Assembly: GCA_023231475.1 (NCBI GenBank)
Contig: JALJEE010000736.1
Coordinates: 1-64,000, forward strand
DNA: 64,000 bases
Direction of reading: 5' to 3'
Origin: Seison nebaliae
Lineage: Eukaryota
Part shown: positions 5,895 through 63,934 of the stretch, piece after piece
Layout: each line of letters begins with the position of its first letter
Numbering within the stretch: position 1 is the first letter of the stretch
Notes under the pieces: generated by a model
Seen by the model: only the letters and a program-made list of their open reading frames with translations
Databases searched by the model: none
Told to the model about the DNA's origin: nothing
Made by a program: the position numbers and the translations under genes

Positions 5895-7886
5895 TCATTT
5901 TAGCGATTGATGTGCAGTTGACATGGATGAATTGGATGAGAGTTTATGTTTCAATGAACCAGATAATGCATTGACAATCGATGATGATAATGTGGATGTC
6001 GTACTCATCATGAGATGTGATGGAGCGATAGATGTTGCATGATTGATCAATGTGGAAGTGTTATGAGTATGTTTGAATTGATCGAAATTCTTCTTCCGAC
6101 GGAATCGTGCTACACTCAGAACAATCTTATTCTGAGATGTTCTCAATAACGAACTAATCATTTCACATGATAAATTGGAGATGTTCTTCCCATTCAACGA
6201 CATTAAACGATCATAAATTCTTAAACGTCCGTCATGTTCAGCGGGACCACTCGACATCAGATGTGTAACATAAACACCGAATCTCTCATCCATAATCATC
6301 ATCTCGTTGGAAGTGGGTCGATTGAAATGACCAGATATACTGAAACCGAAACCTTTCCCATTACGTTTCACTAATTCGATGTGAACTATCTCGAAAATGG
6401 ACGGATCACAATTATATAACATTTGCTTCTGAACTGGAGATAATTTTCGTATTTTCATCGAAATCTTTTCATTCTTTTCTGATGATTGAATGATCTCTTG
6501 AGAAATCTCATCGATCGTCAATCGATCCACATTCCTCTCGTTCAATCTCAACACTTCATCTCCAGGCAATAAACGACCATCACCAAATCGACCATTCTTC
6601 TCGATAAATAAAACGATCACTTTGTTCTGGAAAAGACGAATGAGAGGATGTTACAAGAGAAATGAAAATTCCAACAAATAAAGTCTCGATGGAACCGATG
6701 AGTGTCAGACCAAATGGCGAATCAGTCGAATCGAATTCGTAAATTTTCGATAATTCATCCGGTAAAATTTCCTGCAAATTTCAAATAAATTTGAAACAAA
6801 ATTCCAAAAAAAAATTTGAAAAAAATTCGAAAAAAAATTTGAAAAAAATTCGAAAAAAAATTCGAAAAAAAAATTTGAAAAAAATATTCGAGAAAAAAAA
6901 AAATTCGGAAAAAAATTTGAAAAAAAATTTGAAAGAAAAATTCAAAAAATAATTTTCTAACCGATCTCGTTATGGATAGTTTGAGGTCATCTTGATCATC
7001 AATCGATTTTCTTGTTGTGTTTTTCGAAAAGGATTTATGATTGGGAGCGAATTGTAATGGAACTGTTGTTGTTTTCGTTAGATTTGGCAGGGTTGTCATA
7101 AGATTTACCGGTGTCAATGACGAGTCAATGAAAGGATTAGATGTCATGACTGTTGTAGTTGTTGTTCGTGTTGACGATTTGATGATTGATGGGGAATTGT
7201 GTTGAATTGACTTCTTTAAAAGTTTTGTTGACGATGTAGTTGATGGTTGTTGTTGTGTTGACATGGTTTGTTTATCGATATTATTGGGGAGATATGACAA
7301 TGGTGATTGAGTGGCATTATTAATTAAATTACCATTCCAATCGATCCGTTTGTCATTCAATAATTTATCATTGCGATTAAATATTGTTCGTTTCATCGGT
7401 AATTCACTGGCACATCGACGTTGATAATCGATTGATGGTTTCTTTATGAACTTTTCAATATTGGTGGATGATGCTTCATTCTCATCACTCTTATCTAATT
7501 GTGGTTGTTGTAACGAATGTGTTTGAGTTGCAATAATGGTAGAAATAGAAGTTAACGATTCACTTCTCTTCAAAAGATTATTCGAATTGGTTGGCAGATG
7601 AGTTGATCGTCCAAATAGTTGAGTAGTCTCTCCTCGACTAGGTCGATGTATAGTGAAGATAGTAGTAACACCTTGTCGAACATCTTGCAGATATTTCATA
7701 AGAGATGTATATGAATTCCCTTCTACTTTCATTTTATCTACTTTTATGACAATATCGTTTTCTTCCGCACATTCGTCATTCTACACAAAAATAAAATTTA
7801 ATTAATTGTCAAATTATATTCAAAATTAATTTAAAGTGTTTTTGACACATCAATCTATTCTATTCATAACTTCTTTCTTTCATTCC

Positions 7887-7917
<31 letters not shown>

Positions 7918-10269
7918 TGTTTGATTGAGAGTCAATGAAATATTTGTTGAATAAATTAGAGAAAATTAGAAGAGAACTTATTCTCCATGAATTTTTTGAG
8001 GAACTCCAAATATCCTTTCTTTTTTTAGACATTATAGATCATTTTCAAGATTGAAATGATGAACAAATCATTATTGTTATGGGAAGATGTGTAGGTAAAC
8101 ATGAGAACAGTCGTTCTAAGATGAGACGTCGTTTCAATTGGAGAGAATGTGTTCGGACGTCAATTGAATGTTTAGATTAATATATATATAAAAATAAATA
8201 GGTAGATATGTGGAGGAATTAGTTTAAGAGAAAATTTCCATTTTTATCAATTCCTCGCTGAGTAGATTAGTGAAAAATGAGAAGAAAGAACAGAATGGAA
8301 GAGATGAGGAGTGGGTGGTATAAGAGGCGAAAGATAATAAATACAACACTCCACTATCATATTATATCATATCATAAATGATTTTAATATTTACGTACTT
8401 GCCTACACCATCTCATTCTATATGACGTATATGGAAGTGGCGTGAGCACATCACACACAATGTACTATCTATCATAAACATTAGATCTCCTCAACATATT
8501 TCCGACGATCACCTACAACAATATGCACATCAGCTGCTACTATGCTAATAAATCATTTCTTCATCTTCTCCTTCACAATAGAACAAACAAATCAAACTCA
8601 TCAATAACTAACAATATCTCCTCTTCAATTGCAGAAACAAAAAACAGCAAACGTCCAATAACATTCCTCACAATTAACATAACTAACCAACAAGCCTTCA
8701 ACAACTCCTTTCATTACACACACCATCTCTGCTATCTCTTCTCGCGTAAGACCTGGTGGCTTTCTCTTAAGCTTAATTTAAAATTTTAAAAATAAATTAT
8801 TCAATTTCTACAAACACAATTCTTTTTTTTTTACCAACTTTTTAAATCAAACTTTTCTACTCCTCCACTCTCTCCTTACAAGCTCTACCATTCGATATAG
8901 TCGCAAAATCATTTGAAACTTCAAATATTATATTCGAATGAAGTTTAATGAGTCTAATAAAACATGTTAATTCTCTAGGGAATTCAGTAGGAAAATGTGT
9001 AAACCAATTAATTGAAAGGAATAATTCGAGGAAATATTACGAGTCAGAAGAAAATGAAACTATAAAATTTCGAGGAGTTCCATCTTTTATTATGAGTTCC
9101 TAAAAAATTTATTTCGATACTCTCACCATATTCTGATAAAGAGGAGGAATTAGAGAAAGCATTTAGTCAATTATCCATGAATCGTTACAGGTTACAAACA
9201 TAAATTTAATATTGTTGAAGTGTCGATGCCATCCACAGAATGACGGAAACCAAAAGAAGCGACGTGTATCATTATTGGACGACATTAATTTGAATAGGAA
9301 AAACGTATTCATCTCTCCAATTCTCGTGTAGAATGAAGGATGAGTATGATTTGAGGAGAAACATGACATGGACATTATAATGGGAACATAATGAAATTCC
9401 AGTTAATTTTCCCAGTTCTATTGTATGAAATTGTTTAATTGTATGAAGGAATAGGAAAAAGAAGAAAGAAAGAAAGAAATGTTTGAATAATTCATATAAT
9501 TCATTTTCGAAGTTTTCCTTCAGAACGAAATGATTATAACGACTAATTCGCATACTCCATTCGGTCATGAGAATTATTTGCGTGTTACACCAGATAATGA
9601 TTTCATTTTGGTTTTTTTGCAGGGAAACTATTATTTTAATTCATGACATCGTCATCTCGTCTACTCGTTTCAAAAATATTCATGCCAATGATTAAACTTG
9701 AAAATTTTTTAATCATCCTTCCACAAATTACAATTTTCAACATTCTCATGAAACTTTTTTAAATCCAATTTCCAATAAACCTTTTCTCATTCTCAGAAAA
9801 CCGATTATACATAGATCATTCCCTCATGATTTTTTAATGAAAATTGACTTTTATTTATTCGGTGGACGAAATTCTTTTACGAAGAGAAACGGTTAATCAT
9901 CCCAGTCATCAATAAATTATGAGAATTTGAAATAACAATAAAATAATATATGTGAATAAACTTTAGAATTTGGGAGATTATAGAATAAATTTATTCATTA
10001 AATTTATTAACGTAAATTCATTAAAATGAATCGTTACACTTCTTCTATAATGATTCGTATTCCATTGGAAATAATTTGGACGTTAAATAATAGAGTGTGC
10101 ATGTATGTGTGTATAGATGTGTATTTTTCGTGTATATAAGTGTAGTTCTCGTGTACATAATATTACTTCTCGTCGGAATATGATTGTTCTACAACACCAC
10201 TGTTCACATGTGGAGGATGTTTGGGGAGGATGTGCAATGGGAAGTAAAAGAAGAAGAAGAATAAAAGAC

Positions 10270-10302
<33 letters not shown>

Positions 10303-13300
10303 AAAGGAAAGAAAGAATATTGTGCATCATTTACTCCATTTATAAATTGGTATTTTTTCTATTTCCTAATGTTTGACGAAGAGTAAATTATGGGAATATA
10401 TTCATCGGTTTTCTTATGATAATCTAATGAGAATTTGATCATTCTAATGTCGAACATAATTCTATTAAGAGAAATAACTTATGAAATTATTAAACTTTTC
10501 TTCTGAAATTAATAGAAGATCAAATAGAGAGGAGAAAGTGGTGAGGGAAGAAGCGAGAAATGAAATTACTTTTCTTCATTTGTCAATACGTTATAATCGA
10601 TATTTTTATAAATTTCCATGGAATACTAATATTGAAAAGAAGAATAAGAATAATTCAACATCCATCGAATTATGCACACAATTGCAGCAACTTCTTTACC
10701 TTGAATCATAATTTTCTGTGCACAACAGCTGCACAATCCGCTATAGATTGCCTAATGAAAGATCAGTCTGTATTTCAAAAAAATTTGATTGTAACAAATT
10801 GTGTTTTTGAAAAAGCTTCTCCTGTTAATGAAGAATTTACATATTCGACAAAGAAATCAGAAGAAGACTTGGAGTGCACATTGAGTGCATTGTCTAGTAG
10901 CGGAACTCCTTCAAAAACAGATAACTGCGACTTGTCCGTCACTGACACTTCATGTCCACTAATTTAGACTGATGAAAATCATCGACATTACACCAATACA
11001 GTTGTTAAGGTTTCGTCCACGAATGTTTCAAGTTCAATCGAATGAAATTTATAAAATAAAATATAGAATGAACATTCTTCCATCTACTAACAATATCAAC
11101 TGAATAATAATATTATACTTAATTTTGAGAGAATAGTATGAGTCAATGAGCATAGACCGTATTGATAACGATTATTGGAATGGGAACAATCACGTTCGAG
11201 TCATTAGTTGATTGTGAGGTGAAATTAGAAGAACAGATTGGAGAGAAGTTTGAATTAGAATGAGGCGAAACGGTTAGATGAATATCACATTTGATGTGAA
11301 TAAAAATTTGGTGAAGAATTTATAAATAATTATAGCAACATTGATCATTATCAGACGGTGGTGTTGTACAAAGAAACTTTTTTTTTGTTGCGGAAAATTT
11401 ACATGAATGAATATCGCATTTGATATGATAGGCGATCGATTGTTATTGACGTAATATAGAAAGGAAAAGAAATAATAATGGAAATAATGACGACGATGAT
11501 GATGATGATGATAGTGATAGGAAAGGAGGAGATGGTAATAAGATAATAGATTAGAAATGAATAGTAACTTTTGAAGAATATTCGGAGATATTATTTCTCA
11601 TTGTTTTCTTTTGAACATCATCATCATCATCCTTGATGTCCAACATTTCATTATTATTCGTGGTGGTAATGGCAGAGGTAATTCCAGTCACGGAATTCTT
11701 TTCCAAATCTATTTGTTTTCTCTTCAAATCTGTCAGACGATAATTTGAACTATTTCTCCTTATCGAAGTGATTAGTAATCCAATCAATTTCCATTCGTTC
11801 ATTTGACAATTGTTCGAATGAATCGTTTCTGCCAATTTCTGATAATTATGAATGGGATTTTGGCCTTGGTTCTTCGAAACTGTGTTCCTCGCATTTATAT
11901 GAATCTCCTTCCCAACAACAACATCATCCTGTTGATTCTTATTCTGATTATTCATAGTGGAAGGATGGTATGTCGAATGAACGGCGGAGTTAAGTGGAGA
12001 TGAGAAAGAGGAAGAAGAGGAAGAAGAAGAGGATGAGGAGGAGGAGGAGGAGGAGGAGAAGTTGGTGGATGAAGAAGAAGTTGTTTTGGAATTATTACAG
12101 TAATTAATAGGAACGTCTTCAGATAAATATGTTTGATAAGAATTTGATCCATCGTCTTGCCGCATCAAATCTTCCTCACCATCATTTCTCATTTGGTCAT
12201 TCGATTTCGATGAAAGTTGATAAAGTGGCAGAATAGATAAGCCAAAAGAATTCGTTAAATTACTCTTTTCTATGGGAATATTTAATATGGGATAATTATC
12301 AAGAAATTTATTTATAGAAATGTCCTCTTCACTTATAGCCTCAATTCCATCATTCTTATCTTCATGACGATTATTGAACTTATCACTAACAAATGGGTTG
12401 TGATTCAATGAGTAATTATCATAGTTCCTTTCATCGACTTCTTCATCCAGTACATTAACCTTCTTCCTTATCCCCACTACCTCATCATCCACAACCAGAT
12501 TATGGTCATTCTTTTTCGAAATATCATTCGGATATTCTAAAGATGAGTGATTGGAATGCATACTGCTTTTCTTTGAACATTTTTCAACTGAAAGGTCGTC
12601 ATCATTATCATCATTATTATTATTTTTCTTCACATTATCTTCGTTATTAGGAAATTGTTCTTTTGGAAAATTTTTCGTTTTCGTTTCCGTTTCTTCAAAT
12701 TCGATTTCATTCGAAGATGCTGATGGAACTGACGATTCCTTCCGATTACCTATTTTGCTATCGTTCTCTCTATGAAGATTTTTTGGAAATCTTTCGAAGT
12801 TTTCATCGTTGCTATGGTTACCATTTATTTGTTTTGACGGATACTTCGATGATTCATCAGCATCATCATCATCATGAACGGTATTAGTGATTGGTTTGGT
12901 TAGAAGAGAATTGAGCGCATATCTGCCATCTTTCCCGACATCCTTCTTCTTTTTCTGATGGTTCGACAATCTTATTCGGTTTTCAACATTGATAGTTTGC
13001 TCAATCTTATTCTGATGATCTAAATATGAAGGTAGAATCTTATTATTTCGTTCGATAACAATGTCGATGTTTCCGTCGGCGAAAGGTTGTGTTCTTATTA
13101 AATTGGAAATTTCCAAATGTGATCGACCATTAACATTTATATCATTAATCTAGAATGAAAGGAGAAAGAAACAAGATTAAATTGGAATGAAGAAGAATGA
13201 TAATCTGATTACTATGAATTCATTACATCACCTCTCTCATATCATTCCCTACTGCGACGTCGTACATATGTGCCGATTAATCGATGGGCCGATTAAAATA

Positions 13301-16300
13301 TGAACAAACATAATATCCTTCCAGTTATTTGAGTTATTTGAGAATCATTTTTTCTTCATCAAAAATTCCTTCTTGACATCTCGTCCTTCTTTCTTCTTCT
13401 TCTTATCATAGACAGTTTCTTCTTTTTTTCTTTTTGAAATAAACTCAATTTTTATCATATACAAAGGAAATTGCATGAGAGTAACATCAAATATATCAAC
13501 CCAATGACAGCAATGCCACATTAGAATAAATCTACCTACAAAACGAGACGTTGTGCACCAGATATGCATGTCAAGTGGTGGAAGCGGAGAAGGAAGGAAG
13601 AAACGATGGGAAATTATTGCTCATATCATCCAGAAAAATTGGAATCATCTAATTTGCAAGAGATCATTCCTCCCCGATCTTAATAAAGAATTGCTTATGA
13701 AAATCGTTCATCTTTTGTAATAACAACTCAATTCTCCCACCTTACAGCGCACTCAACAACCATTCCTTCTAATTATTAGTCTTCGTCCAAATGCCCTTTC
13801 TCCCAAATTATCGTCCAATTATCAATTCAATTGAAATCCGAAGAAAAATCTTCGAAAAAACCCCAAAAATTTTCTCCAATTTTTTTTCAAATTTATTCCA
13901 TATTCGAAATGGTTATTTCTATAATGTTACAAATTTAATTCATTGGATTAAATTGACGAAATAAACTCTCGTTCCACATACGAATCGAATCGTAATAAAT
14001 GTGAACAATTTCAATGTTCACATGAAGCATGAAGACGAATGGAAGAAGAGCACTAACGACTGCCACCTACTAATTTTTTAGCTATCAATGAAGTTTCCTT
14101 TTCTCAGATCTATGTATATATAACTCGTTTTTTTATATTAATATTATTAAAATTGGGTGGGAATATAATTAGGTAATCGAATTCACCTGCGTAATTCTCA
14201 AGAATTGACATATGAATATTAGTATGCTTCTTACGTCATCCAATATATTTCTTGATAAACTACTAATGTTTCGTTGAAGAAGAACATACATCATCTTCCA
14301 TCCCATAAATCCAATTAGATCCGTTATTAGACAAATTGATGAATATGAAATTACTCTTATAAAATTGAATATCAAATACGTATAACTCAAATCTGAATTA
14401 TAAACAGTTGTCGTTATATTCCGACTTTTTCTCCTTCAGAAAATAAATAACATTTTTTCTCAATTCTTTCAACATTAAAACCACGTTAGAATTAACAAGG
14501 GAAAAAAGGAAAGGAAGAAAAAGTTTTTAATTCCTGAAGCGAATTGGACGAATGAGAAAAATAAGGAAAAACTTGTGCATAGAAAGTGGGAGGAATCAAA
14601 ATTATAATTTGCCATTCTAAATTTGCCGCAGGAGAGCAGTTGAGGAAAAGTCCCTGCGTTTCTCATCGGTATCATACTAATCAACGTTTTCATCAAGACA
14701 CAAAACTCTCATAATTCAACTTTCTGTATTTCTCATTTATGACGAATTTATGAATATTCGAAGAATTGATCATAGACGATCTATTTGACCAGATCGTCTT
14801 CTTATCGGAAAAGAAAAAAAACTTTAATTTATTCTTCCTTTCAAATTGGAAATTTTTATCGAACATTTTTTGCATTAGAAAACGGAATTAATATTCATAG
14901 AAAATTTCCATTGAAGAATTAATGGATTTGGACTCTCCCAGACAACTGGAGGGAATTATGATGTGATTACGGAATTTCTTTCTAGAATTGTGTTTAAACA
15001 ATTCCCATGTAACATATCAATGGGTCATGGTTGGTATTGGATGAGAGAGATATGGAACGAAGGAGATATTCGTTTAAACATCATCATTAGCATAAGGGGG
15101 AAGTGGTGATGGATGTGTCATGTTAGAGATTAGGAAAGGAAGAGGAAGACAATGTAAATGGAAGGAATGACACAAGAACATGATCAGAATTATCACCAAC
15201 TGTGATGATGGAAATATGAAATGGATTGAATAAAAATAATAGGCGAAATTCATTTTTGAAAAAAAAGAAAAGAAAACGGGAATAATAGATCTATCTATCT
15301 ATCTAATATACATATGTATATTCCTATTCTCTAAGATTCATTCATTCAATTGACGCATATTCAATCGGATGTAAAAGATAATGTACTTTCTGGTGTTCTT
15401 TAGATATTGAGTGAAATAAATTAAAAAATAATGTTATCATCTATATGGTGCACAAGTGAATCCGGATACATAGGGTGGAGTATGACCAATTGAAGATACC
15501 AACAGATAGAAACACCATAACTTCTCCCAATCAACCCAAATCGACTTATATTAATCCTTCCAATGTCTATAGGAGGATTAATGAAATTGAAACCGAACCG
15601 ATTATCTACATCGGATTTCAATATTTCCATAATTATTCCATTTACCTCAACACCGAAGAAAGAATGTTCAACGATAAATTAACCGTGTTGGAAATTGAAG
15701 TTATTTCAACAAAAAATAATATATTCCATTTTTGAACTTTCTGAAAATTATGTAAAATTACTATGAAAATTTATGATTTCCTTAAATTTCAATGAAACTG
15801 TTTTTTCTAATGAATATATTGTTTATAGAGACATTGGAATGAGTGGAGATAAGAACAATAATTTGTTTCATTGTTCTGGCGAAGAAGTATTGATGGAGAA
15901 TTGGATAATAATTATTTTGATTTTAATCTGATAAATCAGATATGGAAAGAAGAAGAATAAATAAAGGATATAGTAAGAAAAATAAAGAGTTTGTTGCGGA
16001 CCAGATACGATGGGAGGGGTGGGAGAAAACCGAGAGCTGAGAAATGTACTTTCATTCTAACTTCCATTATTTCATGCGAAACCTTTTCCTTTCTTTTTTT
16101 TTATGTTTATTTGTTTATTGGAATGAGAAAAAAATAGGACGAAGGATGCATGTTGGAGGCACCCTCTTCACTGTAGCATATATCCATAAACTGACATTGC
16201 TAAAATAATCAAATGGAAGAAAATGAGAAATTATTTCAAGTTTTTTTTATTATTTTCCAATTCCTTCTTTTGGACTAGTCGATTCCACTATGATTTGCTT

Positions 16301-19300
16301 CGATTCCATTTAATTTTTGAAATCTCTTCATTATTTCATCATCTACTACATTCATTTCTTTCGATGTTCAATTGAATTGAAAAGAAATATGATGAACTTC
16401 TATATAGATCTGTGCACTGGTGTGAAGGGGTTGATGAGAATGTTATGAAGAGAAAAGTTTCTTTGGCCAGATAAGATAATACTTATGATTATCCGTTTGT
16501 CGTAGTTTTGTAATAATTCGTAGAATATTACTTATACAATCATTTTGTTGAGAATGAATGAAAGAATGATGACTTATTTCGAATGCATGATCTACACTGC
16601 AATGGATACATAATCATTGTCATAATGAAACTGGTTGAGATGTTCGCGTATGCTCTGGATGGAGGGAGGAAGACATACATATGTAAGGACAGCCAATTGA
16701 CGGAATTGAACATGGACGACATTGATCGAGAGAAAATTAAATAAAATTAATGTCAAGTTAAATTTGATTAGTTTCCTTTCCATTGTCGTTATTATTATGA
16801 AATATTTCTATGATATTTATACAAAATACAAATTAGTTTATTCTTCCTCCAATTAACAATTATTCTTCCATTCTATTCAAATTATTCTTTATTTCTTCTC
16901 ACTCTTAAAAAAAATGGAAATCATCAATTTCTAATTTATTAGTTCCGTCCTTGCATTGTTAGTGAGGGGAGAACGAAGTACAATGTAGTCGAAGGAATCG
17001 ATTATTCTTATTTCCATGCCGTCCACTTGACATCCGGCTCCATCCAAAAAGCACCAAATAAAGTCTTTTTCGAATTTAACGTTTATTTCCGAGCTCATTC
17101 ATTCCATTCCATTTCGAATTATGATCGAATAGAATGATGGACTAAGGAAAGAATGAACTAATATCGGAAATAAACCGTTTGGAAGGGAAAAGAAAAATAA
17201 GAAGTTCTAATCAGTCAATAAGATATTTATTTAACATTCTTTATCAAGTGATTCTATCCAACTATTCGAATTGAGAGATACGAAATTATCTAATTCTGAC
17301 TCTTCATCTAAGTTTGGTGTTAAGTAAAACGACTCCTTTTGGGTGGTTGATGAAATAAAGAAATAAAATTTAACCTTATGAATTATATCATATACTTCCA
17401 TTGTCGTTTGACGTGCTACACATCCATCCTCCACAATTGCTACAACCACACATTGTGAATCGGACACATTCCCTCCAATCTTCTTATTATTGTAATTAAA
17501 AAATTCGTCGTTACTTTTCACTTTTAAACATTTCAACGTCATTCCTAACAATTGGTTTGGCGTTTCACGTTTGATAACAAACGTTTGGAATTTCTTTATT
17601 ATTTCACTTGTTTCCTCCACTTTAATATTGTCCGTTTCCGGTAAAGTACTAACGGATGACGATAAAGATGACGATCTGGTTCTTCGACCTAAACCGTCGT
17701 CGTTGTCATCGTCTGAAAGCTTCCCATCTGGTTTCATATGATAATTCTTATCCAAAAATGTTTCGTCATTCAATGAGGGAATATCACTCATTGACAAAAG
17801 TTCATCATTCTCACTACATAAAATATCGATATTTCGCCAAAATTTTCCTTTATCTTTCGAACCGTTATTCGACGTAATTGACGATGAGAGAATGGATTCG
17901 GTGGAACAATTCTCATGATTTTCTCTTTTGGAAAATATTTCTAATTTTTCTCTCTCGTGAAGCAAATCCTTTCAACGAATGGTTAATTGGACACACTGAA
18001 ATAATAACTTGGTCCACCAAACTTTGCACGACGAAATCGACGGGCGAATCTGCTTTTTGAATAATCTCCACTGCACGTTCATGTGATGCGTTTCTGATAC
18101 TAATATCATTCACCTGAAACATGTTTTATTTGGATGAAATGAAAAGAAATATTCGTTAATTCTTCAAGAGATCAATTCTTCATTATTAACCATGAGAATT
18201 CGATCTCCCGTTTTCAACAAACTGAATTGAGCCGCCGGACTATCAGTCAGAACATTTTTCACAAAAATTCCTGAAATTATTTTGTCTAATTCATTATCAG
18301 AATCAATCCGTCCACCTAATTCCAATAAAAATAAGAAATAATAAGAATTTCGAGATCTTCTTCTAAACAACCGAACTAACCAACAATACTGATACCCAAT
18401 GAACGATTCTTCATTCGATTGAGATATACATGTCGTTCTTCTCCCCAAAGATTCTCGATGAACATACGAGCTTTGCTCGTCGTATTGGCGGTGAGAGTTC
18501 GTCCACCAACTGAATAACCGGTTTGTTGAGTGCATAAATTTGAAGGTAAATTGGTTTGTTTGTCCGTTTTTTCTTCGTTCAATTTCTCACATGACTGTGG
18601 CAACGGACGATGATATTGGAAAGAGTTCTGTTTATAAATCCCTCTATTTTTATCGTCGTATTTCAAGATGGATTTCGTCGGTCTTGGTACTTCAGATTTG
18701 ATTTGCTTCCTCTCCAATTTCGTCGAGTTACTCTTCATCACATTCGATTGTTTATGATGAGGATTGGAGAATTTGATTATTTCATTCGATTTCTCTTTCG
18801 TATTCACCAACGACATATTATTGGAAGAGGTAAGTGGATTCTCATTGAAATTTAACTCGGGTGTTGATTGATATTTATAATAATTATTCTTTCCATCATC
18901 ATTCATCAGAGAACAATCGTTATCTTCATCATAAATATCTTTCCGATAATCATCGATATTATTATTCATTTCATCCTGATAATGGAGAATGATATCCGAA
19001 TCGTTCATTTCATTAAATTTATATTTCCTCCCACTAATCGGCGTATTGGCAGTGGTGGCAAATTGTCGATAGTTTGGTCGGTCTGATGATATTACCAAAT
19101 CATTTTCAATGATTTTATGATTTTCCCGATAATCATTCTCATTAGGTAATATTGGAAGTGGTTGAGATGAATGAAGATCTTTCTTCTTTTTATTCGACGA
19201 ATATTTATTGGAGAAGATTCCATTGTAATATTCATCTTTCGAATCGATTCGATCATTCATCGAATAGGTTTCATCCAAATTCATATCACTCTCATACCAA

Positions 19301-20118
19301 CGTCTTTTAATGGAAAATTTTTTTTTTGAATTTTCTTATATAATTTTCAATAAAATTAAACTTTCTCGTTCGATTTACTAAATAATCTTGTTTGGCTCGT
19401 GCGACATCAGTTTCTTTAATATATACAATACTTTATCATTAAGAATTAAAAGAGAATTGTCGAAAGAAAGAATTAACTGAACATCACCGGAAAGTAGATC
19501 TGCACGTCCCATTATGAATTTGAGCATGATGGGTGAAATACATCGAAGATGTTCGTTATTTACGCGAACGATGAAATCTCCGACATTCAATCGACCATCA
19601 ACTCCAACTAATCCATTCTTATTAATCGATTTTATTCGACAACCGTTTACACCATAATCGATATTCGTTTCTAAAGTGACACCCAAAAGCTTCTTTTTGT
19701 TCTTTGAATTTTTTGAACGAACATTCTTCCGATCAAATGACGATCCGATATGAAAAGGAACCAATTTCAATTTCCTTTCATATTCTTTTGGAACTTCAAA
19801 TGTTCTTCGTCCCAACGACGTCACCAAACGACCATAAATACTTTGAACGGAAAGTGTTTGTTCATTCCGATCCTTATTAGTATTAGTCGTCTTATAATTC
19901 TTGTAAAAATCGTAAGTGTTATACAGATTGGTGGCATTGGATAATTTGTTGGTACTAGTAGTCCTGGTGGTGGTGGTGGTAGTCTTGGTAGTTGTGGTAT
20001 TCTTGGTAGCGGTGGTGATGATGGTGGTGGTTTTGACATGTGAATTTTTCAATTCTTTGCCCATGTCGCATTTCAACGGCAAATTCGAGCAATAATTGCT
20101 CTCGGTTCTTATATCATC
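5895..20118 (-). CDS. Multi-PDZ scaffold (MUPP1/MPDZ-PATJ/InaD-like), at least 10 exons, 6 PDZ domains, 5' end unresolved
   Basis: Exons (minus strand): 20118-19478, 19430-19362, 19303-18381, 18315-18191, 18113-18009, 17968-17375, 13149-11569, 7780-6962, 6771-6676, 6626-5895. All junctions are phase-compatible and join split PDZ motifs: SLGISIVG|GRID...GIFVKNVLTDSPAAQFSLLKTGDRILM|VNDISIRNASHERAVEIIQKA; DIIHK|INDINVNG; GLTLIGSIETLF|NKVIVLFIEKNGRFGDGRLLPGDEVL; GKGFGFSISG...DGRLRIYDRLMSLNG. From recall these resemble MUPP1 PDZ6-PDZ11. Confidence 0.88.
6772..6961. repeat. Intron made of A-tract/T-tract minisatellite units (GAAAAAAATTT / GAAAAAAATTC variants)
   Basis: About 13 imperfect 10-13 nt units fill the 190-nt GTT...AG intron. 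They account for the spurious FFQIFF tail of ORF 6755..7732. Confidence 0.85.
7887..7917. repeat. (CAT)n microsatellite, intronic
   Basis: About 10 perfect CAT units. Confidence 0.9.
8480..8765 (+). mobile_element. Possible decayed non-LTR retrotransposon ORF1 fragment inside a multi-PDZ intron
   Basis: A/C-rich, G-poor strand bias unlike its flanks. Translations PQHISDDHLQQY and SKRPITFLTINITNQQAFNN...HLCYLF(S)RVRP loosely recall LINE ORF1 proteins. Pattern recognition only. Confidence 0.22.
10640..11044 (+). pseudogene. Cys-rich coding-like segment antisense within a multi-PDZ intron, interrupted by an in-frame TAG
   Basis: Higher GC and ordinary codon usage. The frame reads ...NCDLSVTDTSCPLI*TDENHRHYTNTVVKVSS and continues sensibly past the stop at 10965-10967. 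Confidence 0.25.
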
Positions 20119-25479: not shown

Positions 25480-25700
25480 TTTTCAACTTTTTTAAAAACT
25501 GCTCTTTATCGTCAAAAATATTTAACGTATCATATTGAATTTGATACCTTTAGAAAGAGCTTGAAATGCTCTACAAGATAGTGCTTTGCTAATTTCATTG
25601 ATTTCAAAAATTTATTTAAAATTTGGGAAATTTGTTCCTTGAAAAATAAAAAAAGTCGACTTTTCGAAAAATTGTAAATTCAGACCTAAATACATGGTAT
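25480..25700. mobile_element. Degenerate non-autonomous DNA transposon / MITE-like segment
   Basis: Contains GATACCTTTAGAAAGAGCTTGAAATGCTCTACA, sharing AAGAGCTTGAA with the element at the window start. No TIR pair or TSD was resolved. Confidence 0.25.
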
Positions 25701-43366: not shown

Positions 43367-43407
<41 letters not shown>

Positions 43408-44596: not shown

Positions 44597-44600
<4 letters not shown>

Positions 44601-52200: not shown

Positions 52201-55200
52201 CATCAAATAATGATATTCCTTCACATGATCGATCCAATCGTAAATCAACCAGAATAATGGCTTCCGGTTTATCTGAAGTAATTTGTATTTGTAATTGATT
52301 TTCTGTCGAACTCGTCGTTCTCACATTTTCCATAAGTTGTTGAGACACGGTATAAACTGATGATTTTGAGTAATGAAACGGAATTCTAAGATAACTATGT
52401 AAAAAAATTGTAAAGGGAAGAAAAATGAACATAGTATTGATGGTTCCAATTCTGATCTTTAACAGAATATATGGCACTTCAACTGAATCGACTAATAATA
52501 TTTTCGTAGTACCAATAATACACAAATCCGTTCCATCTGGAAATTGTTCCATCGTAAGATCTAATCAAACGTAAATGATGATTTTATGATGATTTCCAAA
52601 ATTATTTTTCAACTTTTCTTTATTATTCGACCAACTTCACATTGCTCGTTCCTACATGAATAGATCTTTGTATTCCTTTCACATGTCACATGAGGTATTG
52701 CATCACACTTTCTTAGATCACTAAAAATCAAATGGAATTTGGTAGATATAAGACTGATAAAAATCGAACTTGTATTGTCGAAAAAATATTCCGCTACAAT
52801 TCTCTAAGCTCATCGAATTTTCAGTGCATGCACTGTAAAATGAGTTGAACAAACCCTTCTCATTCGTCTCTAGAAACGGTTTTGAATTTTCCATATTTTT
52901 TTTGCCAAAACTCAATAAAATTTGAACTTAAAAATCTGACAGTTTCCACTGAAGTGTTGAACATTTTCTGACAGAAGAATTCATAAACATTGATATCGGT
53001 GTGGGCACACATCGTCCTCCAACGATTCCGATATTTCAATGACAATATACCGGAATTGGGCGAATCCGATTTCTCCAATCTCAAATCAAATGTGGGTACT
53101 GAATGATGGGAAAAGAAGAGTAATTTATGAATGAATAGAATGGAAATGAAACATTTTTTGCATTCGATCTCCGACAATATTTGTTGACAAGTGTTGATTT
53201 TCATGAACTCACATGGTGATGCTCGACTCCTCGGGCAATAAATGGCGAAAGTATCAACATTTGGCATATCTGGTACTTTTGTACCATATGATGATATTTC
53301 TGTTCGATCTAAACTGGAAATAATTGGAATGTTTCATGAGACAATTTTCAAATGAAATGGGAACTCATCCTGCGTGAATTGATGACATAAGTTACTTAAT
53401 TCTCGATTTTTTATTCCATCGGCACATATTGGCAGTTTTGTTGTTCCTTTGTATTTTTGGAGAATGTTTGAAAACTTGTAACTGAATTCAGCTTTTTTGA
53501 AAGTGACTACGAAAGAATTGAATGAAACTGTCGAATCTCTAAGAAATTTAACTGCAATCCGCTTCATCTTTCATGTCGAGACAATCGGCAATATGGTCGC
53601 AATGTTGTTCTGCTTCTAAATTCACCACTCCATTGGCACTTTGACATTCTTGTTTTACTGAATTTCATAAATAAATGAGAAGAATTAAAAGAGCATAAAA
53701 AACATAAAATTTCATTTAATTCAAAAGTGAAAAGAAACAACTAAGAGACACACTAAGGAAAAGATAAACTACTGGGTGGAGATCTAATAGATGATCGAGA
53801 AGATGAACGAGTGAAAAAGAAGTAATTAAGAGATATACATCTGATCGTACATAAACATAAATTGGGAAATAATTCGATGGAATCGATATGAGAAATGAAA
53901 GTAATTGAAGAATTAAACGATACCATTATTTCCAAAAGTTTCGAAACAGTTCGTCGTTGGAAATTGATCGCAATTCAAATCGATCAATGTCAATGAATAA
54001 GAACAACTTCCTTTGATTTCTGAAATGAGAATAAACATCAAATTGAAAAAGAATAGAAGATGTGTCAGGGAGACCTTGACAATATGATCTACATGGAGGC
54101 TTCGCTGTCGTACACGACGGTTGGAGAATGATACACAGGAATCTTTCATAAGATTGATGACAAGTCATCCCGTTCGATTTCAATGTCTCCATCAATGTCT
54201 GTAGATAAACCACTTTCTCGTCAGTCGTCGTTAGATATGGATAATTGATTGATATCAACGGTATATAATCGCTCTTATCCGAATCGGAATTTATACACAT
54301 TTCTGATTTTTTCGTACATTTATCTAAATTTTTTTGAAGTAAATGAAATTTTTTTTTTATGAATCTCAAAGAACCTTTTACGTTTGCCGTAACGGCGTCT
54401 AAAGCATAGCAGTCCTTCACCGGATATTTGAAACAATTGATCTTTCCTAACAATTTCGAGACGAGCGGCTGATCTCCACAAAGCGATTGGAACTCTTCAA
54501 ACAGAAATAAACGGAATTGAATGAGAAAAATTTTATAATAGAAATTTGACTGTTACATAAATCTTGACATGGTTTCGCTGTTCGATTATTGGTACAAGTG
54601 GGATAATATGAAGAGCATAAGAAATTCGGTCCAATTAATGGTGCACATTCATTTATAGTTTTCTCTAGTAGAATATAAATGAAATTGATGGAAAATTCGA
54701 CGTTGATGTTTGTCGTCTGATCGGAGAGATGAGGTAAGAGAGAAAATCCATTTTCTATTGGATCTAAACGATTCATGTCATATGTTAGAATCGAATTAAG
54801 ATGATGACGTTGACAATATGAATTTCTCTTATAATCTAATCGACATCCATTCAATGAAGAATCCTGAATATCCGTCACAAATCTTTCACAATATCGACCA
54901 GTGAAATGTTTGGTGCAAACACATGTTCCTTTATTAGCATCTCCAGTGATGGCGACACACGTTGCACCATTCTTACAAATTTCTTTAATTGCACAGTTCG
55001 GATAATTATAATCTATTTCACCGATACAATCCGTTTCCGGATAATCTTCACAATTGAATATTCTCATATTATTATATTTGTTAATTAATTTCGATGCACA
55101 TAAATCAAAAAATTTCCGACAGAAACTTTTACAAGGTTTTATTAACCGCGCAGTTGGCGTTCCATTATTTTCAATTTTACATTTCGGCGATGCCATTGAG

Positions 55201-58200
55201 CAGAGGAATTCTTTTTGATATTCATAACAACTTCCATTGAGTAATTCATTAATTTCTGTCAATTCGATGTTGAGTCGTTAAGGAGTTGTTAAGAAATGAT
55301 AATAACTTCCCATATGGATAAAAGAATCTTCTTTCTTTCTACCGAACATTGATGGTGTGGCAACATATCGATATGGTCTTATCGAACATTCCGGTAATAT
55401 TTTATCATTTCCTCCACATAATTTTTCTGATTGAGGAAAATATGGATAAGGATTATTAGACAAATATTATTAGTAAAACCATTCTTCAAATGCTCTTCAG
55501 ATATACAATAATCAGTTTGGAGCATATTTGGTGCATTTGCTGAATATGTATTATTGGCAGGAAATATTTCACATTTGAACGTCCACGGATTCCCACAACT
55601 TCTCACAATCGATTCACAGAAACTTCGGCAAGGTAACACTTTATATCCATGTGCCGTTTCAGTCGATACAATTTTTTTAAGATCACATTTCGTATTTGTC
55701 ATTGCACAAAGGAATTCATTCAGGAACTCATGACAGTTCTGATTTGGTAATCGATTTTTCAAATAATTAAACTAATCAGGAAAAGTTGTCCGGACAAAAT
55801 TAAAAGACAAAGTGGTTCAAAAGAAAAAATTTGTATTCTCATTAACTTGAGCTGAATTGTCGGCTATCGTTCCAAATCCGAATGATGACACACTGGACAC
55901 CCATTGCCAGGGAGAGGTGGCGCATTCCGATATTTTGATATTTGATTTGCACACTTCCAAAAACCTTTTAGCTCCTGCGGGGAAAGCGTAATTGTCATGG
56001 AATAAAGCTAAATAAGAAATGTTAATTTTTGATAGATTGGTGAAGGAGAAGAACCATCAAATTTCTTATTTGTTAGACAAGTTTTAGATGTATCGCCTAT
56101 GGGTAATTTGTCACAATTTATATTAATCTTATTCAAATATCGACTCTCGCAACGATTTTTGTATACTTGGGAGACTGATAGATTTGATAGAGAAGAGAAG
56201 AAATAAACATTTGCATTCGTCTTGACATGGCGTCCTGTAATTCATTTTGTAGACGGTACAAGGTGGATAAATGAGTGAACATAGAGTTCTTAGATCTTCT
56301 CTTGAACAAACTTTCTGAGTGGAACAAATTAAACAGTTGTTCTTTAATTATCTCAAATCTAACTGCATGAAGTAATAATTGTAGAGAAGTGAGAGCACTT
56401 TGTTGGAATGTTTCATATCCGTTCGTCGAATCGAAATAAGCATTGGGAAAAGCAAATGAAGCTTCTTTGAAGAATATGCCACAACGATCATCGCCATGTG
56501 CCATGCAACTTTCTTTGTAGAGAATTAGATTTCCTATTAATGATCGATAGATGGACTACTAACGTTCAGGTGATAATTGTGGTTGAGGTAAAGGATATTT
56601 GTCGAGTGAAAATGGATTGTTCATTATACATTGCATTCTTTCATTGGGTAATCGATTACAATCGATAAACAAATTCCCCAAATATTGTGAACATGTTGAG
56701 AGGAAATCTAAAAACAGAAAAGAAATTTCACAATATGAAATTGACATAAACGTAATGAAAGAATAACTGACACACTCTTCGGCGCAAGGCAGATGATCGA
56801 TATCAGAACATGGCGGAGCGACCATTGGACATAGAAACAATTCAATTTGCCTTATACATGTTTGGGGCAAATTTGTCTGTTTTGCCACTTTCATCATCTG
56901 AACGACCTCATCGACGGTTTGATGTTGAAATAAAGGAGAGAATTTCGATTGCATATATGGCAACGAACTGCACATGGGCAACACTGGTTTATGATTCCAG
57001 CATATTTCTTGAGGTCGTGGATTTTCGTACGGACTATATTTTATTGATGATCCATAACAAATTGTCGGATCATTTCCATCTGGAAAATTCCTACAATCGA
57101 TCGATGTTAATAATTGATAGTGGATTTGTGATCGACATTTATCCATAAAATCTGAAAAAATGATCGACATTAAAAATTGAAGAGATTCCTCTTTAACTTT
57201 CACATAAACGACGACATGGTGGCATGATTTTCGGATCGTCAATTGATTTACATGGTGGATCGAACATTAGACAAAGAAATAATTTCGCTTCACTGAAACA
57301 TTTCGAATCGATTATCGATTGAGATTGTTTCATTACATAATTCGTCACAAACGGTACGTAAATGTTGAAATGATTGGGTATTCCATGTGTCTCCCATTTT
57401 TGGTCATTACACATGGAAATCTCTTGTTTAAGACTGCAACTTCCAGAATTATAAATGTTATCTAATTCACCAAGAATTCACAAAAACGAGAAATTCACAA
57501 AAGAAAACTTTGATTGAATTGTTTCGATTTAGTGTTGATCTTTCTAATTTTGGCAGTTCGAGAATATAAAGAAACTGCACAAAGAATACATGAAATTTTG
57601 AGAATGTAAATTTATTAGTAACGAGCGTCTGATTCACATTTGTCAATTAGAAATTTCTTCACGAAATCATCATCCTGAGAATTATGCAGATAATCATTCC
57701 ACTGAGTGGTTAATGCGTTCTCCAGTAACTCCAATCGATCATTGGGATATGAGACATTATCAGTAAATCGGACTAAAAATTGAGCCAAATCCAATTGTTC
57801 TTTACCTTGATTCTTTTTCATCATTATCTCCGATTGATTCTCATCGAATCGAGTATTCAATATTTTATCGATATTAGCACCTTTCAACGTTTCGATGATC
57901 TTTCATATTCAACTTATATTAAACAAATGATAATGGAATAAAAGAGTTCAAACATTTTTTGATAAAGTATTCGGATTGGCATGCTTCTTTGTCGGATCTT
58001 GGAATACGTTGACGATAATATAATTAACTAATTGAAAGAGAATTAATTTTATATTATTATTAAATTTTAATTAAAAATTGAACTCGGTAATTTCTCTCCG
58101 ATGGGATATGGTTCCGGTTTGTCATTTTTCTTAGCTAGAAACGAACATCGATTAGTTTTCTATGCATTCAAAGTTTAATTTTGTTTAATTATCCTCTTAG

Positions 58201-59121
58201 CATCTTTCCAAATGAGAGAATTTGAAGGAAAATAAATTTTACTTTACTCGTGAAGGTAACGGTTGAGGAAATCATGTGAAAAGTTCATTTAAGACATGTG
58301 GATCTAACCTAAAGACATCATTTAAGTTTGGTGGAATAAGCGATCTTAAATCGTATGATGAAAATAATAGAAGTAAAGTAAAGAAATGCTGGCATGTTAT
58401 TAGTAAGGAAAATGATAATATAAAGGTCCTGTGAATGGTTTAGTAAAGCCTAAAAATATCTTAATAAATTCTCAATCATTATTATCTAATTGTTTTATAC
58501 GGAAATGATCGGCTAATTATATTAGTCCAAATATTACATTTTACTGATTACACATTTCTGAATTTACTACTACAATTACACAAAGTTAAATTGAAATAAT
58601 TATTAAAAATAAATGGTAATGATGAGAAAATAAGGTAAAGAATGAAAGGAAATGATACTAACTAAGAAATATTCCTAGAATGATTGCTCCAATGACTAGT
58701 GTAAGAGCTATGGCCAGCAGAGCTATGAGTGTACAGACTCGGAAACGTTTTTTTGATTTAATTTCAATTTCATCATTCTTTAACGAATAACTCTTCCCGT
58801 TATGACTATTTGAATAAAGTTCATTGGACATAAAATCTGTATTGGATATCTTCGTCTTCTTATCAGCATCTGTCCAACTGAATAATTTCAATGTTTATTA
58901 ACGTGAAACATTTTCAAGCGAATGTCTAACCTTTTATATAAGTTCTGACTATAAATTGCATGTGCATTTATTGGATTGGGTGGATGAGATCTTTTACCTC
59001 CACTATTTTTATTAGTTTTCTTTTCATTATCAGTAAATTCCTCGTCATCATTATCATTATCAGTAATAGCACCAGATGATGGTTCATTAACTTTACCTCC
59101 CTCTGGATTTTTGGGCGACAT
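49255..59121 (-). CDS. Corin-like type II transmembrane serine protease, about 37 exons: TM, SEA-like, FZ x5, EGF, FZ x2, LDLa-like, SRCR x2, MAM-like, LDLa x6, SRCR, trypsin
   Basis: TM segment [25 protein letters not shown] (about 58665-58740). Frizzled CRD patterns (FLC..P.C...PC...C) between about 57440 and 53940. [16 protein letters not shown]...[12 protein letters not shown]. LDLa repeats [72 protein letters not shown]. Protease domain: activation site R|IVNG, SAQHC, NDIVIL, KDSCN|GDSGGP. Stop TAA at 49255-49257. Confidence 0.88.
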
Positions 59122-59746: not shown

Positions 59747-59787
59747 GTGTATGTGTGTGTATGTGTGTGTGTGTGTGTATGTGTGTG
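59747..59787. repeat. (GT)n imperfect microsatellite
   Basis: GT run with GTAT interruptions. Confidence 0.85.
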
Positions 59788-62249: not shown

Positions 62250-62412
62250 AATGCACTTAAAGTGCCCAAAACTTTTAGAGCTCCATAACTTTCTTATCCG
62301 AATTCTGAGGAGAAAAGTAAGAGTACCATGATGATCGGCGTCAAATTCTTCATCTAATAGATTTTAAAAAACCTATGTAATAAGGTAGTTCATTTTTGTG
62401 TCGCACTATGTA
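62250..62412. mobile_element. Possible end of a non-autonomous Tc1/mariner-like element
   Basis: MITE-style internal sequence (AGAGCTCCATAACTT...GTACCATGATGATCGGCGTCAAATTC) ending TTTTTGTGTCGCACTATG|TA. No partner TIR was found. Confidence 0.28.
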
Positions 62413-63199
62413 ATGAAAAAATTGTTGAAATGGAAAAAAATGAAAAGAACTGTAAAATATTTCATTAATTTTCTTCAACTATAACTGAAGAACTCGAAAC
62501 TCGAAATTTTCATTAGAACATCTATAATTTGAGGGCCATTGACATTACCCGAAATATTACCCGCCCAGCCATTAATGCAAAATAAAAGGTTTTAGAATAT
62601 AAATCAAAAAAACCATAATTGGAAATGAGCCGAAATTTGAACCCTAATGAAGTTTAGCTCGTAATTGTTCGTCGCATTTGGGATTTGTGAATATTCACCA
62701 TAATAACAATCGAATAACAGAAAAGATATTTCCAGTTTTGGAAAATGTAAGTGGAGGATGGAAATTGAATAAATTTTTTGTAGAAAAAATTTCAAAAAAT
62801 TGGGAAATTTTAATTTAAAAAATTTTGAAAAGATTAACGACAAATAGACTTCAGTGAATTATTGAATAGAATCGATGATATGACGATGAGGAATGCTAAA
62901 AGAAGAAGGCGAAAAGATGATATTAGAAAATAAATAAAGAAATCTTCTTAATTACACGAAGTAATTTTCATGATAATTTGGTGATAAATGTCTATGACAC
63001 GGACCTATGTGATTTTCATTGAATAAAATATAAATTTTAAATAATTCAAGGAAATTTGGAAAAATTTTCGTAAATTGTTCGTTAAAGGAAATATTGTATG
63101 AATAAAAATGAAGAATAAAAGTTTCTAAAAGTTTTTTCTTCAAAAAAAATTGCCATAGAAATTTCTCTTAAAATTTCAATTTTTTTAAAATTTTTTCTT

Positions 63200-63934
63200 T
63201 TAGTTTCCGTAAAATTTCTTACAGAAAGATTGGGAATCACATAGTTTGGCTGATTGTTCTGATTTACACCAGAATTTTGGACCATGACCGCAACTCTTCA
63301 CACTCAATGGCATCGATTTAATGGCATCGATGTAATGTTGATTAGTTGACGACGCTCCACAAAGATTGATCGTTTCACAAATTTTTTCTGGATCATCCAT
63401 TTGAGTGACGAGTTGAAGAACGTATGGAGCATATTCGTCTATATATGACACACAAGTACTTTGGTCAGCTTTCGGTAACAAGTCACACAAGTTAGTTAAA
63501 GCTTCAATAATTTCATGTTCTGTTTTGTTCTCCATTAATTCTTTGTTAATTAAATCGACTGCCAATTTGCAGAAACCGCAGAACGGTCCACTTATCGACG
63601 TTTTCTCCAGAACGATCTTTTCTCGTTGGTGCACTGATGTTTTCTTTGAGCACAAATCTAAAAATGTACAAATCTTTTTCGGGTCAATTTCCATACTGAT
63701 CAATGTGGCGATTGATTCTTCATATTCGTCGACAAATGCTTTACATTCATTCGAAATTGTCGAGGGCATTTGTGAGCAGACGAAATCCAAAACTTTCTTT
63801 ATTTCAATCTGAATTTGAACAATTGAAATTTTAGTCAAATTAAACTATCAAATAAACTTCGGAAGAATTGGCTGAAATATATTGAGCTGCTTCTTTCATT
63901 ACGAATTCGCAGATTGCACAACCTTCACCATTCA
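63200..63934 (-). CDS. PSAP: Prosaposin, 3' part (two saposin-B domains and a C-terminal saposin-A domain); continues beyond the window
   Basis: Exons 63934-63858 and 63808-63200 give CAICEFVMKE...SSE|IEIKKVLDFVC...CKAFVDEY...PKKICTFLDLC, then FCGFCKLAV...ICETINLC, then SapA CGHGPKFWCKSEQSAKLCDSQSFC. Confidence 0.93.

What the first reader, a model, noticed from the sequence alone, without database searches (positions are those of the whole stretch)
5895..63934. Rewired 5' splice-site code: introns almost invariably begin GTT (pyrimidine at +3)
Seen: introns were placed in six unrelated genes on both strands from conserved protein motifs and frame phase. About 50 of about 53 start GTT, two start GTC (54550, 54074) and one starts GTA (53923). 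Examples, giving the position of the first intron base: multi-PDZ 6675 GTTGGA, 6961 GTTAGA, 11568 GTTACT, 17374 GTTAAA, 18008 GTTATT, 18190 GTTAAT, 18380 GTTAGT, 19361 GTTTAA, 19477 GTTAAT; NT5C3 37614 GTTCCC, 37379 GTTTCC, 37120 GTTAGT, 36722 GTTCAA; bHLH (+) 40001 GTTTGT, 43695 GTTTCT; RAD54 48098 GTTTGC; PSAP 63857 GTTTAT; protease GTTTGA, GTTCTT, GTTCAT, GTTTTC and others. Positions +4..+6 are only weakly AGT-like, and exon position -1 is often A, C or T. Established: metazoan U2-type donors have A or G at +3 in the large majority of introns, because +3 pairs with the U1 5' arm (AUACUUACCUG) and +4..+6 pair with the U6 ACAGAG box. AT-richness alone would favour GTA, not exclude it. Inference: this lineage has a compensatory change in U1 (e.g. 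AUACUAAC) and/or altered U1C/LUC7/U6 recognition, i.e. a divergent spliceosome. I am not aware of this being described, but I cannot check the literature.
Basis: partly seen in the sequence, partly recalled or inferred. Interest (0 to 1): 0.93.

Follow-up and report, generated by a model that had tools for sequence, protein, structure and literature searches.

The report
Rotifer introns start GTT, not GTA
In the marine rotifer Seison nebaliae nearly all predicted introns in this stretch begin GTT instead of the GTA/GTG of other animals, including genes likely from its bdelloid relatives, which likely means its splicing machinery has co-evolved to read a different start signal.

Summary
Confirmed. 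The window is Seison nebaliae (Rotifera). My curated set has 50 GTT, 2 GTC and 1 GTA donors of 53. Checks blind to +3 agree. A GT-only gene model gives T 36.5, purines 5.6 of 49.1, and EM started from GTRAGT converges to T 44.3 of 49.5. 32 of 52 GTY donors have no frame-compatible GTA/GTG alternative. Equally AT-rich bdelloid-like RAD54 loci give GTA 43 of 48. Seison's RAD54 intron sits at a position where those loci have GTA, so an old intron changed its donor. No RNA junctions were seen, and Seison's U1 and U6 were not seen, so the mechanism is inferred: an Entamoeba-like U1 change (about 0.45), selection at the U6/protein step (0.3), or a shifted U1 register (0.12; +6G in 1 of 53). Nine literature searches found no report for an animal. 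The precedent is Entamoeba (GUUUGU, altered U1). This scan noted GTT donors before in protists (Bonamia, others; unchecked).

The parts
5895..30272 (-). Multi-PDZ gene (deposited model SNEBB_005913, P0121). Curated donors, all GTT: 29663, 19477, 19361, 18380, 18190, 18008, 17374, 11568, 6961, 6675. An eleventh deposited intron (12114, GTT, in frame, stop-free) was left out as doubtful.
   Evidence: Exact mapping of P0121; non-Seison MPDZ-like homologues support 18380, 18190, 17374, 6675, 19477; Pfam PDZ
36566..37866 (-). NT5C3 (pyrimidine 5'-nucleotidase) gene; donors 37614 GTTCCC, 37379 GTTTCC, 37120 GTTAGT, 36722 GTTCAA
   Evidence: P0283 mapped; junctions 1-3 gap-free against mouse NT5C3, 2bdu; no frame-compatible GTR for any of the four
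39893..43832 (+). Large gene with a weak HLH match; donors 40001 GTTTGT and 43695 GTTTCT, the only + strand introns
   Evidence: Gene model; Pfam HLH E 0.0043, below cut-off; 40001 has unresolved GTG alternatives
46096..48707 (-). RAD54 gene (SNEBB_005917, P0001) with one intron
47980..48098 (-). RAD54 intron, donor GTTTGC, phase 0; same position and phase as GTA-donor introns in L025 (GTAAAT), L029 (GTAGAT) and L050 (GTAAGT)
   Evidence: 117 of 119 homologues place it here without a gap; shared position
49255..59121 (-). Mosaic serine protease (Fz repeats, EGF, LDLa repeats, trypsin domain); 35 curated introns: 32 GTT, 2 GTC, 1 GTA
   Evidence: Gene model and translation; Pfam Fz, EGF, Ldl_recept_a, Trypsin
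49453..49512 (-). Intron GTTTGA splitting DSCN/GDSGGP at the catalytic serine motif
   Evidence: Exons end at Pfam Trypsin position 177 and start at 178; the only GTA alternative deletes GDSGG
49964..50005 (-). 42-base intron GTTCTT just after the catalytic His motif; no other GT inside it
54495..54550 (-). GTC donor (GTCAAA), fixed by the Fz cysteine spacing
54020..54074 (-). GTC donor (GTCTCC); exon ends at Fz profile position 80, as do those before GTT donors 57197 (80) and 56767 (79)
53658..53923 (-). The single GTA donor (GTATCG), 266-base intron
   Evidence: posterior 0.84 in the GT-only model
63200..64000 (-). 3' part of a prosaposin-like gene; donor 63857 GTTTAT (an in-frame alternative at 63845 is also GTT)
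   Evidence: Pfam SapB/SapA

Best explanation
The predicted introns of these six Seison genes have GT...AG ends but carry U at intron position +3 almost without exception, and this likely arose because the U1 snRNA changed its sixth base from U to A (ACUUAC to ACUAAC), so that it would pair with GUU donors. Shown: the +3 T bias, its absence in bdelloid-like RAD54 loci of the same AT content and intron size, a weak +5G in the normal register, and one intron at a shared position whose donor is GTA in relatives and GTT here. Inferred: that these are spliced as modelled by the major spliceosome, that the bias is genome-wide, and that old introns were converted one by one. Untested: the U1 change itself. 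A plausible path (inference only) is a variant U1 copy coexisting with the normal one, A-to-T drift at +3, then loss of the normal copy. U6 would need no change, since its G44 faces +3 and could pair with U or C.
For: T at +3 in 50 of 53, purine in 1; GT-only model and EM from two starts. The same program gives A 38.2, T 6.3 on four bdelloid-like loci even when started from the Seison matrix. Bdelloid-like donors GTA 43, GTT 5 of 48; other RAD54 loci GTA 63, GTG 30, GTC 12, GTT 10 of 115. With normal U1, Seison donors pair at 5.15 of 11 (decoys 3.98, AUC 0.73) against 6.31 (AUC 0.92) for bdelloid-like donors; with A at nt 6 they reach 6.08 (AUC 0.85). Nothing else in the donor is strengthened to make up the loss: +4A 23 and +5G 16 of 53, against 29 and 27 of 48. 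The near-exclusion of A at +3 is hard to explain if U1 still rewards it. The one published +3U lineage I found, Entamoeba, has the matching change in its candidate U1. Parker et al. 2022 place U6 G44 opposite +3.
Against: No Seison U1 was seen. Most lineages with odd donors keep a normal U1: Saccharomycotina yeasts, Giardia, Trichomonas, Thecamonas, Mamiellales. The tunicate Fritillaria borealis keeps the U1 5' end strictly although about 95% of its introns break GT/AG. The gain in pairing count is partly circular, and folding energies barely improve discrimination (AUC 0.63 to 0.64). Exonic GTT is not avoided more than other GTN: at codon boundaries G|TT is 0.78 of expected, G|TA 0.43, G|TG 0.45, and GTTAGT is over-, not under-represented in long introns (9 against 2.3); TpA avoidance and small counts confound this. 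The exceptions are two GTC and one GTA, which fits a G reader (U6) slightly better than an A reader, on three cases. No RNA junction confirms any donor.
Confidence: 0.45

Rival explanations
1. U1 is normal. U at +3 is selected later or by proteins: the U6 ACAGAGA G opposite +3 pairs with U or C, or changed U1C, LUC7, PRP8 or SNRNP27K/METTL16 impose it, as U6 is thought to do for +4U in yeasts.
For: Uncompensated U1 in several lineages with atypical donors, and Roy and Bowser note GUUUGU could pair better with U6 ACAGA; Fritillaria; G44 faces +3; exceptions are pyrimidine in 2 of 3; +5G retained (16 of 53, expected 3.4).
Against: Normal U1 would leave weak pairing (5.15 of 11, decoys 3.98) with no compensation elsewhere, and would still reward A at +3, seen in 1 of 53. 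If C-G pairing with U6 drove it, GTC should be commoner than 2 of 53.
Confidence: 0.3
2. Normal U1 pairs one base downstream (shifted register), so that its A7 reads U at +3 instead of U at +2.
For: The +1 register separates Seison donors from decoys (AUC 0.69) but not bdelloid-like donors (0.51). Such registers exist in about 1.5% of human donors (PMC11162779). The +5G could be kept by U6 alone.
Against: The register predicts G at +6, A at +5 and T at +7. Seen: +6G 1 of 53 (expected 3.4), +5A 18 (16.5), +7T 26 (24.4). Its AUC comes almost wholly from the +3T itself.
Confidence: 0.12
3. No recognition at +3: relaxed selection lets T-rich intron composition fill the position.
For: GTT is the commonest GTN in the window (about 40%); introns are 46% T.
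Against: T is 50 of 53 at +3 but 16 of 53 at +4; P 6e-14 against interior composition. GT decoys near the donors are only 43 of 125 GTT.
Confidence: 0.04
4. Gene-model artefact: real donors are nearby GTA/GTG sites, or several short 'introns' are read-through exon.
For: No RNA junctions. Six donors have unresolved GTR alternatives and five more are only probable. Two in-frame stop-free introns (54374, 52038) may be exon. Three deposited introns look wrong.
Against: 32 of 52 have no frame-compatible GTR; nine more are fixed by homologues, cysteines or the catalytic motif. Even with a human-like +3 prior the model keeps 32.6 of 47.7 donors pyrimidine and loses about 104 log units against a T-rich prior. 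The method recovers GTA on controls.
Confidence: 0.04
5. The introns are recent insertions of an introner-type element that starts with GTT.
For: RAD54 has 1 intron against up to 15 in bdelloid-like loci, so intron turnover has been heavy.
Against: No shared sequence family among the short introns; the first 20 cross-matches printed are low-complexity A/T stretches. The RAD54 intron position is shared with GTA introns of three other loci. Trypsin and LDLa introns sit at positions I recall as ancestral in animals (recalled, not tested).
Confidence: 0.03

Closest known systems
Entamoeba GUUUGU donors with co-evolved U1 (Roy and Bowser, bioRxiv 10.1101/2022.06.08.495308; abstract, introduction and passages read)
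   Same: U at +3 almost fixed; GT-AG ends; AT-rich genome; signs of intron loss.
   Different: Entamoeba fixes the hexamer (88-90% GUUUGU) and U at +4. Seison fixes only +3: no hexamer exceeds 5 of 53 and GTTTGT occurs once. Entamoeba's candidate U1 reads ACAAAC; Seison's is unseen and predicted ACUAAC. Seison is an animal and keeps intron-dense genes.
Canonical metazoan U2-type donors (GURAGU), as in the bdelloid-like and other RAD54 loci here
   Same: GT...AG ends, short T-rich introns (median 53 bases), weak exon -1, +5G in the normal register, one shared intron position.
   Different: +3 is T in 50 of 53 against A in 43 of 48; +4A and +5G are weaker.
Fritillaria borealis non-canonical introns (PMC13326754; abstract start and passages)
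   Same: An animal lineage with genome-scale change of splice signals.
   Different: There the terminal dinucleotides change and U1's 5' end is conserved, with altered m6A and U2AF paralogues. Here GT-AG is intact and one inner position flips.
Shifted-register human donors (Roca and Krainer 2009, seen only as summarised in PMC11162779)
   Same: U at +3.
   Different: A rare class in humans; its +6G signature is absent here (1 of 53).
+4U donors of Saccharomycotina, Giardia, Trichomonas with unchanged U1 (as summarised by Roy and Bowser)
   Same: A lineage-wide pyrimidine at a position that U1 normally reads as A.
   Different: Position +4, intron-poor genomes, strict hexamers.

Membership tests
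U2-type (major spliceosome) introns | GT...AG termini | tested here: met
   All 18 deposited junctions and all curated junctions have a GT...AG solution; for the deposited ones other dinucleotides were allowed
U2-type (major spliceosome) introns | Purine at +3 (GURAG consensus) | tested here: not met
   1 of 53; 5.6 of 49.1 in the GT-only model
U2-type (major spliceosome) introns | G at +5 enriched | tested here: met
   16 of 53, expected 3.4, P 1.5e-7
U2-type (major spliceosome) introns | Branch-site motif near the 3' end | tested here: inconclusive
   CTRAY 5 against 7.2 and YTRAY 24 against 23.0 expected; CTCA 14 against 6.1
U2-type (major spliceosome) introns | Removed from the mRNA at these junctions | not testable with these tools
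   No RNA holder listed
Entamoeba-type co-evolved donor/U1 system | U at +3 in nearly all introns | tested here: met
   50 of 53
Entamoeba-type co-evolved donor/U1 system | U at +4 and a strict GUUUGU hexamer | tested here: not met
   +4T 16 of 53; GTTTGT 1 of 53
Entamoeba-type co-evolved donor/U1 system | U1 5' end changed to pair with the donor | not testable with these tools
   No genome held; no snRNA in the window; Seison U1 unseen
Entamoeba-type co-evolved donor/U1 system | Intron-poor genome | tested here: inconclusive
   Chitin synthase and receptor ORFs are uninterrupted and RAD54 has 1 intron, but the protease has at least 35
Shifted-register donors | G at +6 with A at +4/+5 and U at +7 (derived from the U1 sequence read in L011) | tested here: not met
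   +6G 1 of 53; +5A and +7T at background
U12-type (minor) introns | RTATCCTT donor (consensus recalled) | tested here: not met
   None of 53 donors; only 53923 GTATCGTT comes near
Introner elements | Families of similar intron sequences at novel positions | tested here: not met
   Low-complexity matches only among the 20 printed; RAD54 position shared with three other loci

The most novel reading that the evidence does not exclude
Seison nebaliae is the first animal whose U1 snRNA has rewritten its splice-site reading sequence (ACUUAC to ACUAAC), with thousands of inherited introns converted from GTA to GTT after its split from bdelloids while the rest of the donor stayed degenerate: a one-base recoding of the splicing signal in an intron-bearing animal genome.
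Probability: 0.42. Interest if true: 0.9.

Novelty: new variant of a known kind. Interest (0 to 1): 0.74.

Why it matters
The 5' end of U1 and the purine at +3 are treated as near constants in animals; even Fritillaria keeps its U1 end. A clean A-to-T flip at one position, absent in bdelloid-like genes, isolates the question of which step (U1, U6 or protein) sets +3 and how a signal shared by many introns can change without breaking splicing. Public DNA and RNA data make this testable in a day. Either answer is informative: a changed U1 would be a first for animals as far as my searches reach, and an unchanged U1 would show that a later step can override it at +3. It also matters for annotating and interpreting splice sites in Syndermata.

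Tried and rejected
RNA evidence: no RNA holder listed. Contigs of four runs laid on 44500-64000 show no spliced joint and, for X1 and X2, no differing letter at a donor; these may be the window's own source, so this is no independent support. Short U1 and U6 motif scans of viral contigs gave 8 non-U1 matches and none. The prokaryote collection gave four contigs with real U1 genes of other eukaryotes, used only for the U1 5' sequence. A homologue search for the protease found none within 264-2000 residues. The cryptic-site avoidance test was inconclusive and leaned against GTT-specific avoidance. No link was seen between -1G and +5G (6 both, 12, 10, 25 neither). An apparent GTA intron in RAD54 at 47727, called with gaps by most homologues, was rejected: stop-free, purine-rich, kept as exon in P0001. 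Left out of the 53: deposited introns 12114, 37839, 37792 (all GTT, doubtful), 58662 GTTAGT (acceptor unresolved), and a possible GTC intron at 54701. Controls: 38 of 49 loci were aligned; dropped were three without evident introns or of another subfamily (L014, L015, L021), three near-duplicates (L038, L044, L052), two single-exon scraps (L046, L057) and three weak GC-rich hits (L059-L061); introns with a gap or low identity beside them were not counted. The mikrocytid paper (PMC10245619) had no passage on GTT or U1. A later Syndermata annotation paper that I recall was not found under the DOI I gave and was not seen.


Full report
Source. The large RAD54 exon is 100% identical to a protein deposited as SNEBB_005917 of Seison nebaliae; the multi-PDZ and NT5C3 genes match SNEBB_005913 and SNEBB_005915. 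Seison is an epizoic rotifer of the Seisonidea (Mauer et al. 2021, PMC8351084; abstract and passages). The window is about 31% G+C. No whole genome is held and no RNA run was listed, so all introns here are predicted from DNA and protein evidence.

The observation. I tested the count in four ways that do not look at +3. Letting it learn the donor matrix converged to T 44.3, C 4.3, A 0.8, G 0.2 of 49.5, from a neutral start and from a human-like GTRAGT start alike. With +3 fixed, total log-likelihood was 1659.6 for a T-rich prior, 1641.4 neutral, 1577.2 A-rich and 1555.6 human-like. Second, the deposited proteins map exactly and give 18 of 18 GTT introns. How those models were made is unknown to me, and three of the introns look spurious, which at least suggests a predictor trained on GTT donors (inference). 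Third, non-Seison homologues aligned with a spliced aligner that has no +3 preference chose 48098 in 117 of 119 cases, 18190 in 72 of 78, 18380 in 63 of 78, 17374 in 7 of 10 and 6675 in 25 of 53; three NT5C3 junctions are gap-free against the mouse enzyme. Fourth, of 52 curated GTY donors 32 have no GTA/GTG donor within 33 bases that keeps the frame open with any nearby acceptor. Of the other 20, nine are fixed by homologues, Fz or LDLa cysteines or the GDSGG motif (18380, 17374, 6675, 57197, 56767, 54550, 50865, 50718, 49512), five are probable and six are open. If all eleven were purine the share would be 12 of 53.

The curated set (53 introns, six genes) has 50 GTT, 2 GTC, 1 GTA; median length 53 bases; +4 A 23, T 16, C 12, G 2; +5 A 18, G 16, C 11, T 8; +6 T 24, A 20. 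It was built with knowledge of the EM result, so its P values (6e-14 against intron T content) are an upper bound on the evidence.

Controls. A metagenome scan with Adineta RAD54 returned 49 loci; 38 were aligned. Five are 92-94% identical to Adineta RAD54, 26-34% G+C, with introns mostly 44-67 bases; I call them bdelloid-like from identity alone. Their donors are GTA 43, GTT 5 of 48 distinct; the other loci give GTA 63, GTG 30, GTC 12, GTT 10 of 115. Fisher P is 3e-19 for Seison against bdelloid-like, and 1e-7 if every unforced Seison donor is counted as purine. The control is one gene and its introns are partly orthologous, so they are not fully independent. My gene model returns A 38.2, T 6.3 on four of these loci even when started from the Seison matrix, so the method does not invent GTT. 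The single Seison RAD54 intron lies at the same codon and phase as GTA-donor introns in L025, L029 and L050: an inherited intron with a changed donor. That is one case.

Mechanism. U1 nt 6 faces +3 (from the U1 end read in L011) and U6 G44 faces +3 later (Parker et al. 2022, PMC9803359; passages). With a normal U1, Seison donors make 5.15 of 11 Watson-Crick pairs against 3.98 for nearby GT decoys; bdelloid-like donors make 6.31 against 4.18. With A at nt 6, Seison reaches 6.08. The +3 position holds 1.63 bits in Seison and 1.52 in the control, and no other position is strengthened. This looks like the same recognition step with a swapped base, which is why I rank a U1 change first (0.45). Against it: most lineages with atypical donors keep a normal U1, Fritillaria does too, folding energies do not improve discrimination, and exonic GTT is not specially avoided. 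Selection by U6 or proteins with a normal U1 gets 0.3. A shifted U1 register, a lead taken from earlier notes of this scan, would also explain U at +3, but its +6G is seen in 1 of 53; 0.12. Composition, artefact and introner origin are each below 0.05. Seison's U1, U6 and spliceosomal proteins could not be read, so this ranking is inference.

What is known. Entamoeba has GUUUGU in 88-90% of introns and a candidate U1 with ACAAAC; Mastigamoeba has another U1 variant (Roy and Bowser 2022; abstract, introduction, passages). Seison works like Entamoeba at +3 but fails the +4U and strict-hexamer features, so it is not filed as a member. Nine full-text searches, two of them requiring the name Seison, showed no report of this signal in Seison, rotifers or another animal; most were seen as listings only. 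Mauer et al. 2021 has no splice-signal passage among those shown and none of six terms in two supplementary files (one supplement store gave no answer). Passages of PMC10125929, PMC10639083, PMC11347168 and PMC10245619 did not bear on it. Subscription journals, supplements of the large intron surveys and bioRxiv supplements were not seen and could hold a Seison or other animal logo. Earlier unchecked notes of this scan report GTT donors in Bonamia and shifted-type GTT donors in other protists, and nothing for this genome.

Verdict. The feature is real at the DNA level (about 0.95), lineage-specific against the one relative group I could sample, and a new variant of a known kind. Interest 0.74; 0.9 if the U1 change is found.

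Noticed in passing
window 1008-5150 (-), 34546-35880 (-), 46096-48707 (-): Chitin synthase and a ligand-gated ion channel subunit are uninterrupted ORFs, and RAD54 has 1 intron against up to 15 in bdelloid-like loci, while the protease has at least 35: intron loss looks very uneven between genes.
   Followed up: partly
window 49255-59121 (-): Mosaic protease of well over 2100 residues with a likely N-terminal membrane helix, many Fz domains (five exons scored), EGF, LDLa repeats and an intact-looking His/Asp/Ser trypsin domain; corin-like by recall, with more Fz repeats. No homologue found within 264-2000 residues.
   Followed up: partly
window 37750-37866 (-): The deposited NT5C3 model has two tiny 5' introns (37839, 37792, both GTT) inside an open frame that starts at 37866; probably prediction errors.
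   Followed up: partly
window 7790-29650 (-), long PDZ introns: GTTAGT occurs 9 times on the sense strand against 2.3 expected, and 20 times on the - strand of the window against 6 on +; possibly unannotated exons or recursive sites.
   Followed up: partly
curated introns, 40 to 8 bases before the 3' end: CTCA (14 against 6.1) and TCAT (23 against 14.2) are enriched while CTRAY is not, a hint of a YTCAT-like branch site; 10 of 53 acceptors are AAG. Nine motifs were tried.
   Followed up: partly
window 53658-53923 (-): The lone GTA donor reads GTATCGTTT, one base from the minor-intron consensus as I recall it; no clear minor branch site by eye.
   Followed up: no
window 36921-37120, 6772-6961, 47980-48098 (-): The three medium-length introns are swollen by low-complexity A/T repeats; those at 6961 and 48098 match at 75% over 94 bases.
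   Followed up: no
L009, L010, L011, L012: Eukaryotic U1 (and U2) genes on contigs of bacterial genome bins; L010 holds three U1 copies, one with a divergent 5' end.
   Followed up: no
L040, L041, L055, L042, L048, L053, L050: GTC donors recur in control RAD54 loci, several at what look like the same intron positions.
   Followed up: no
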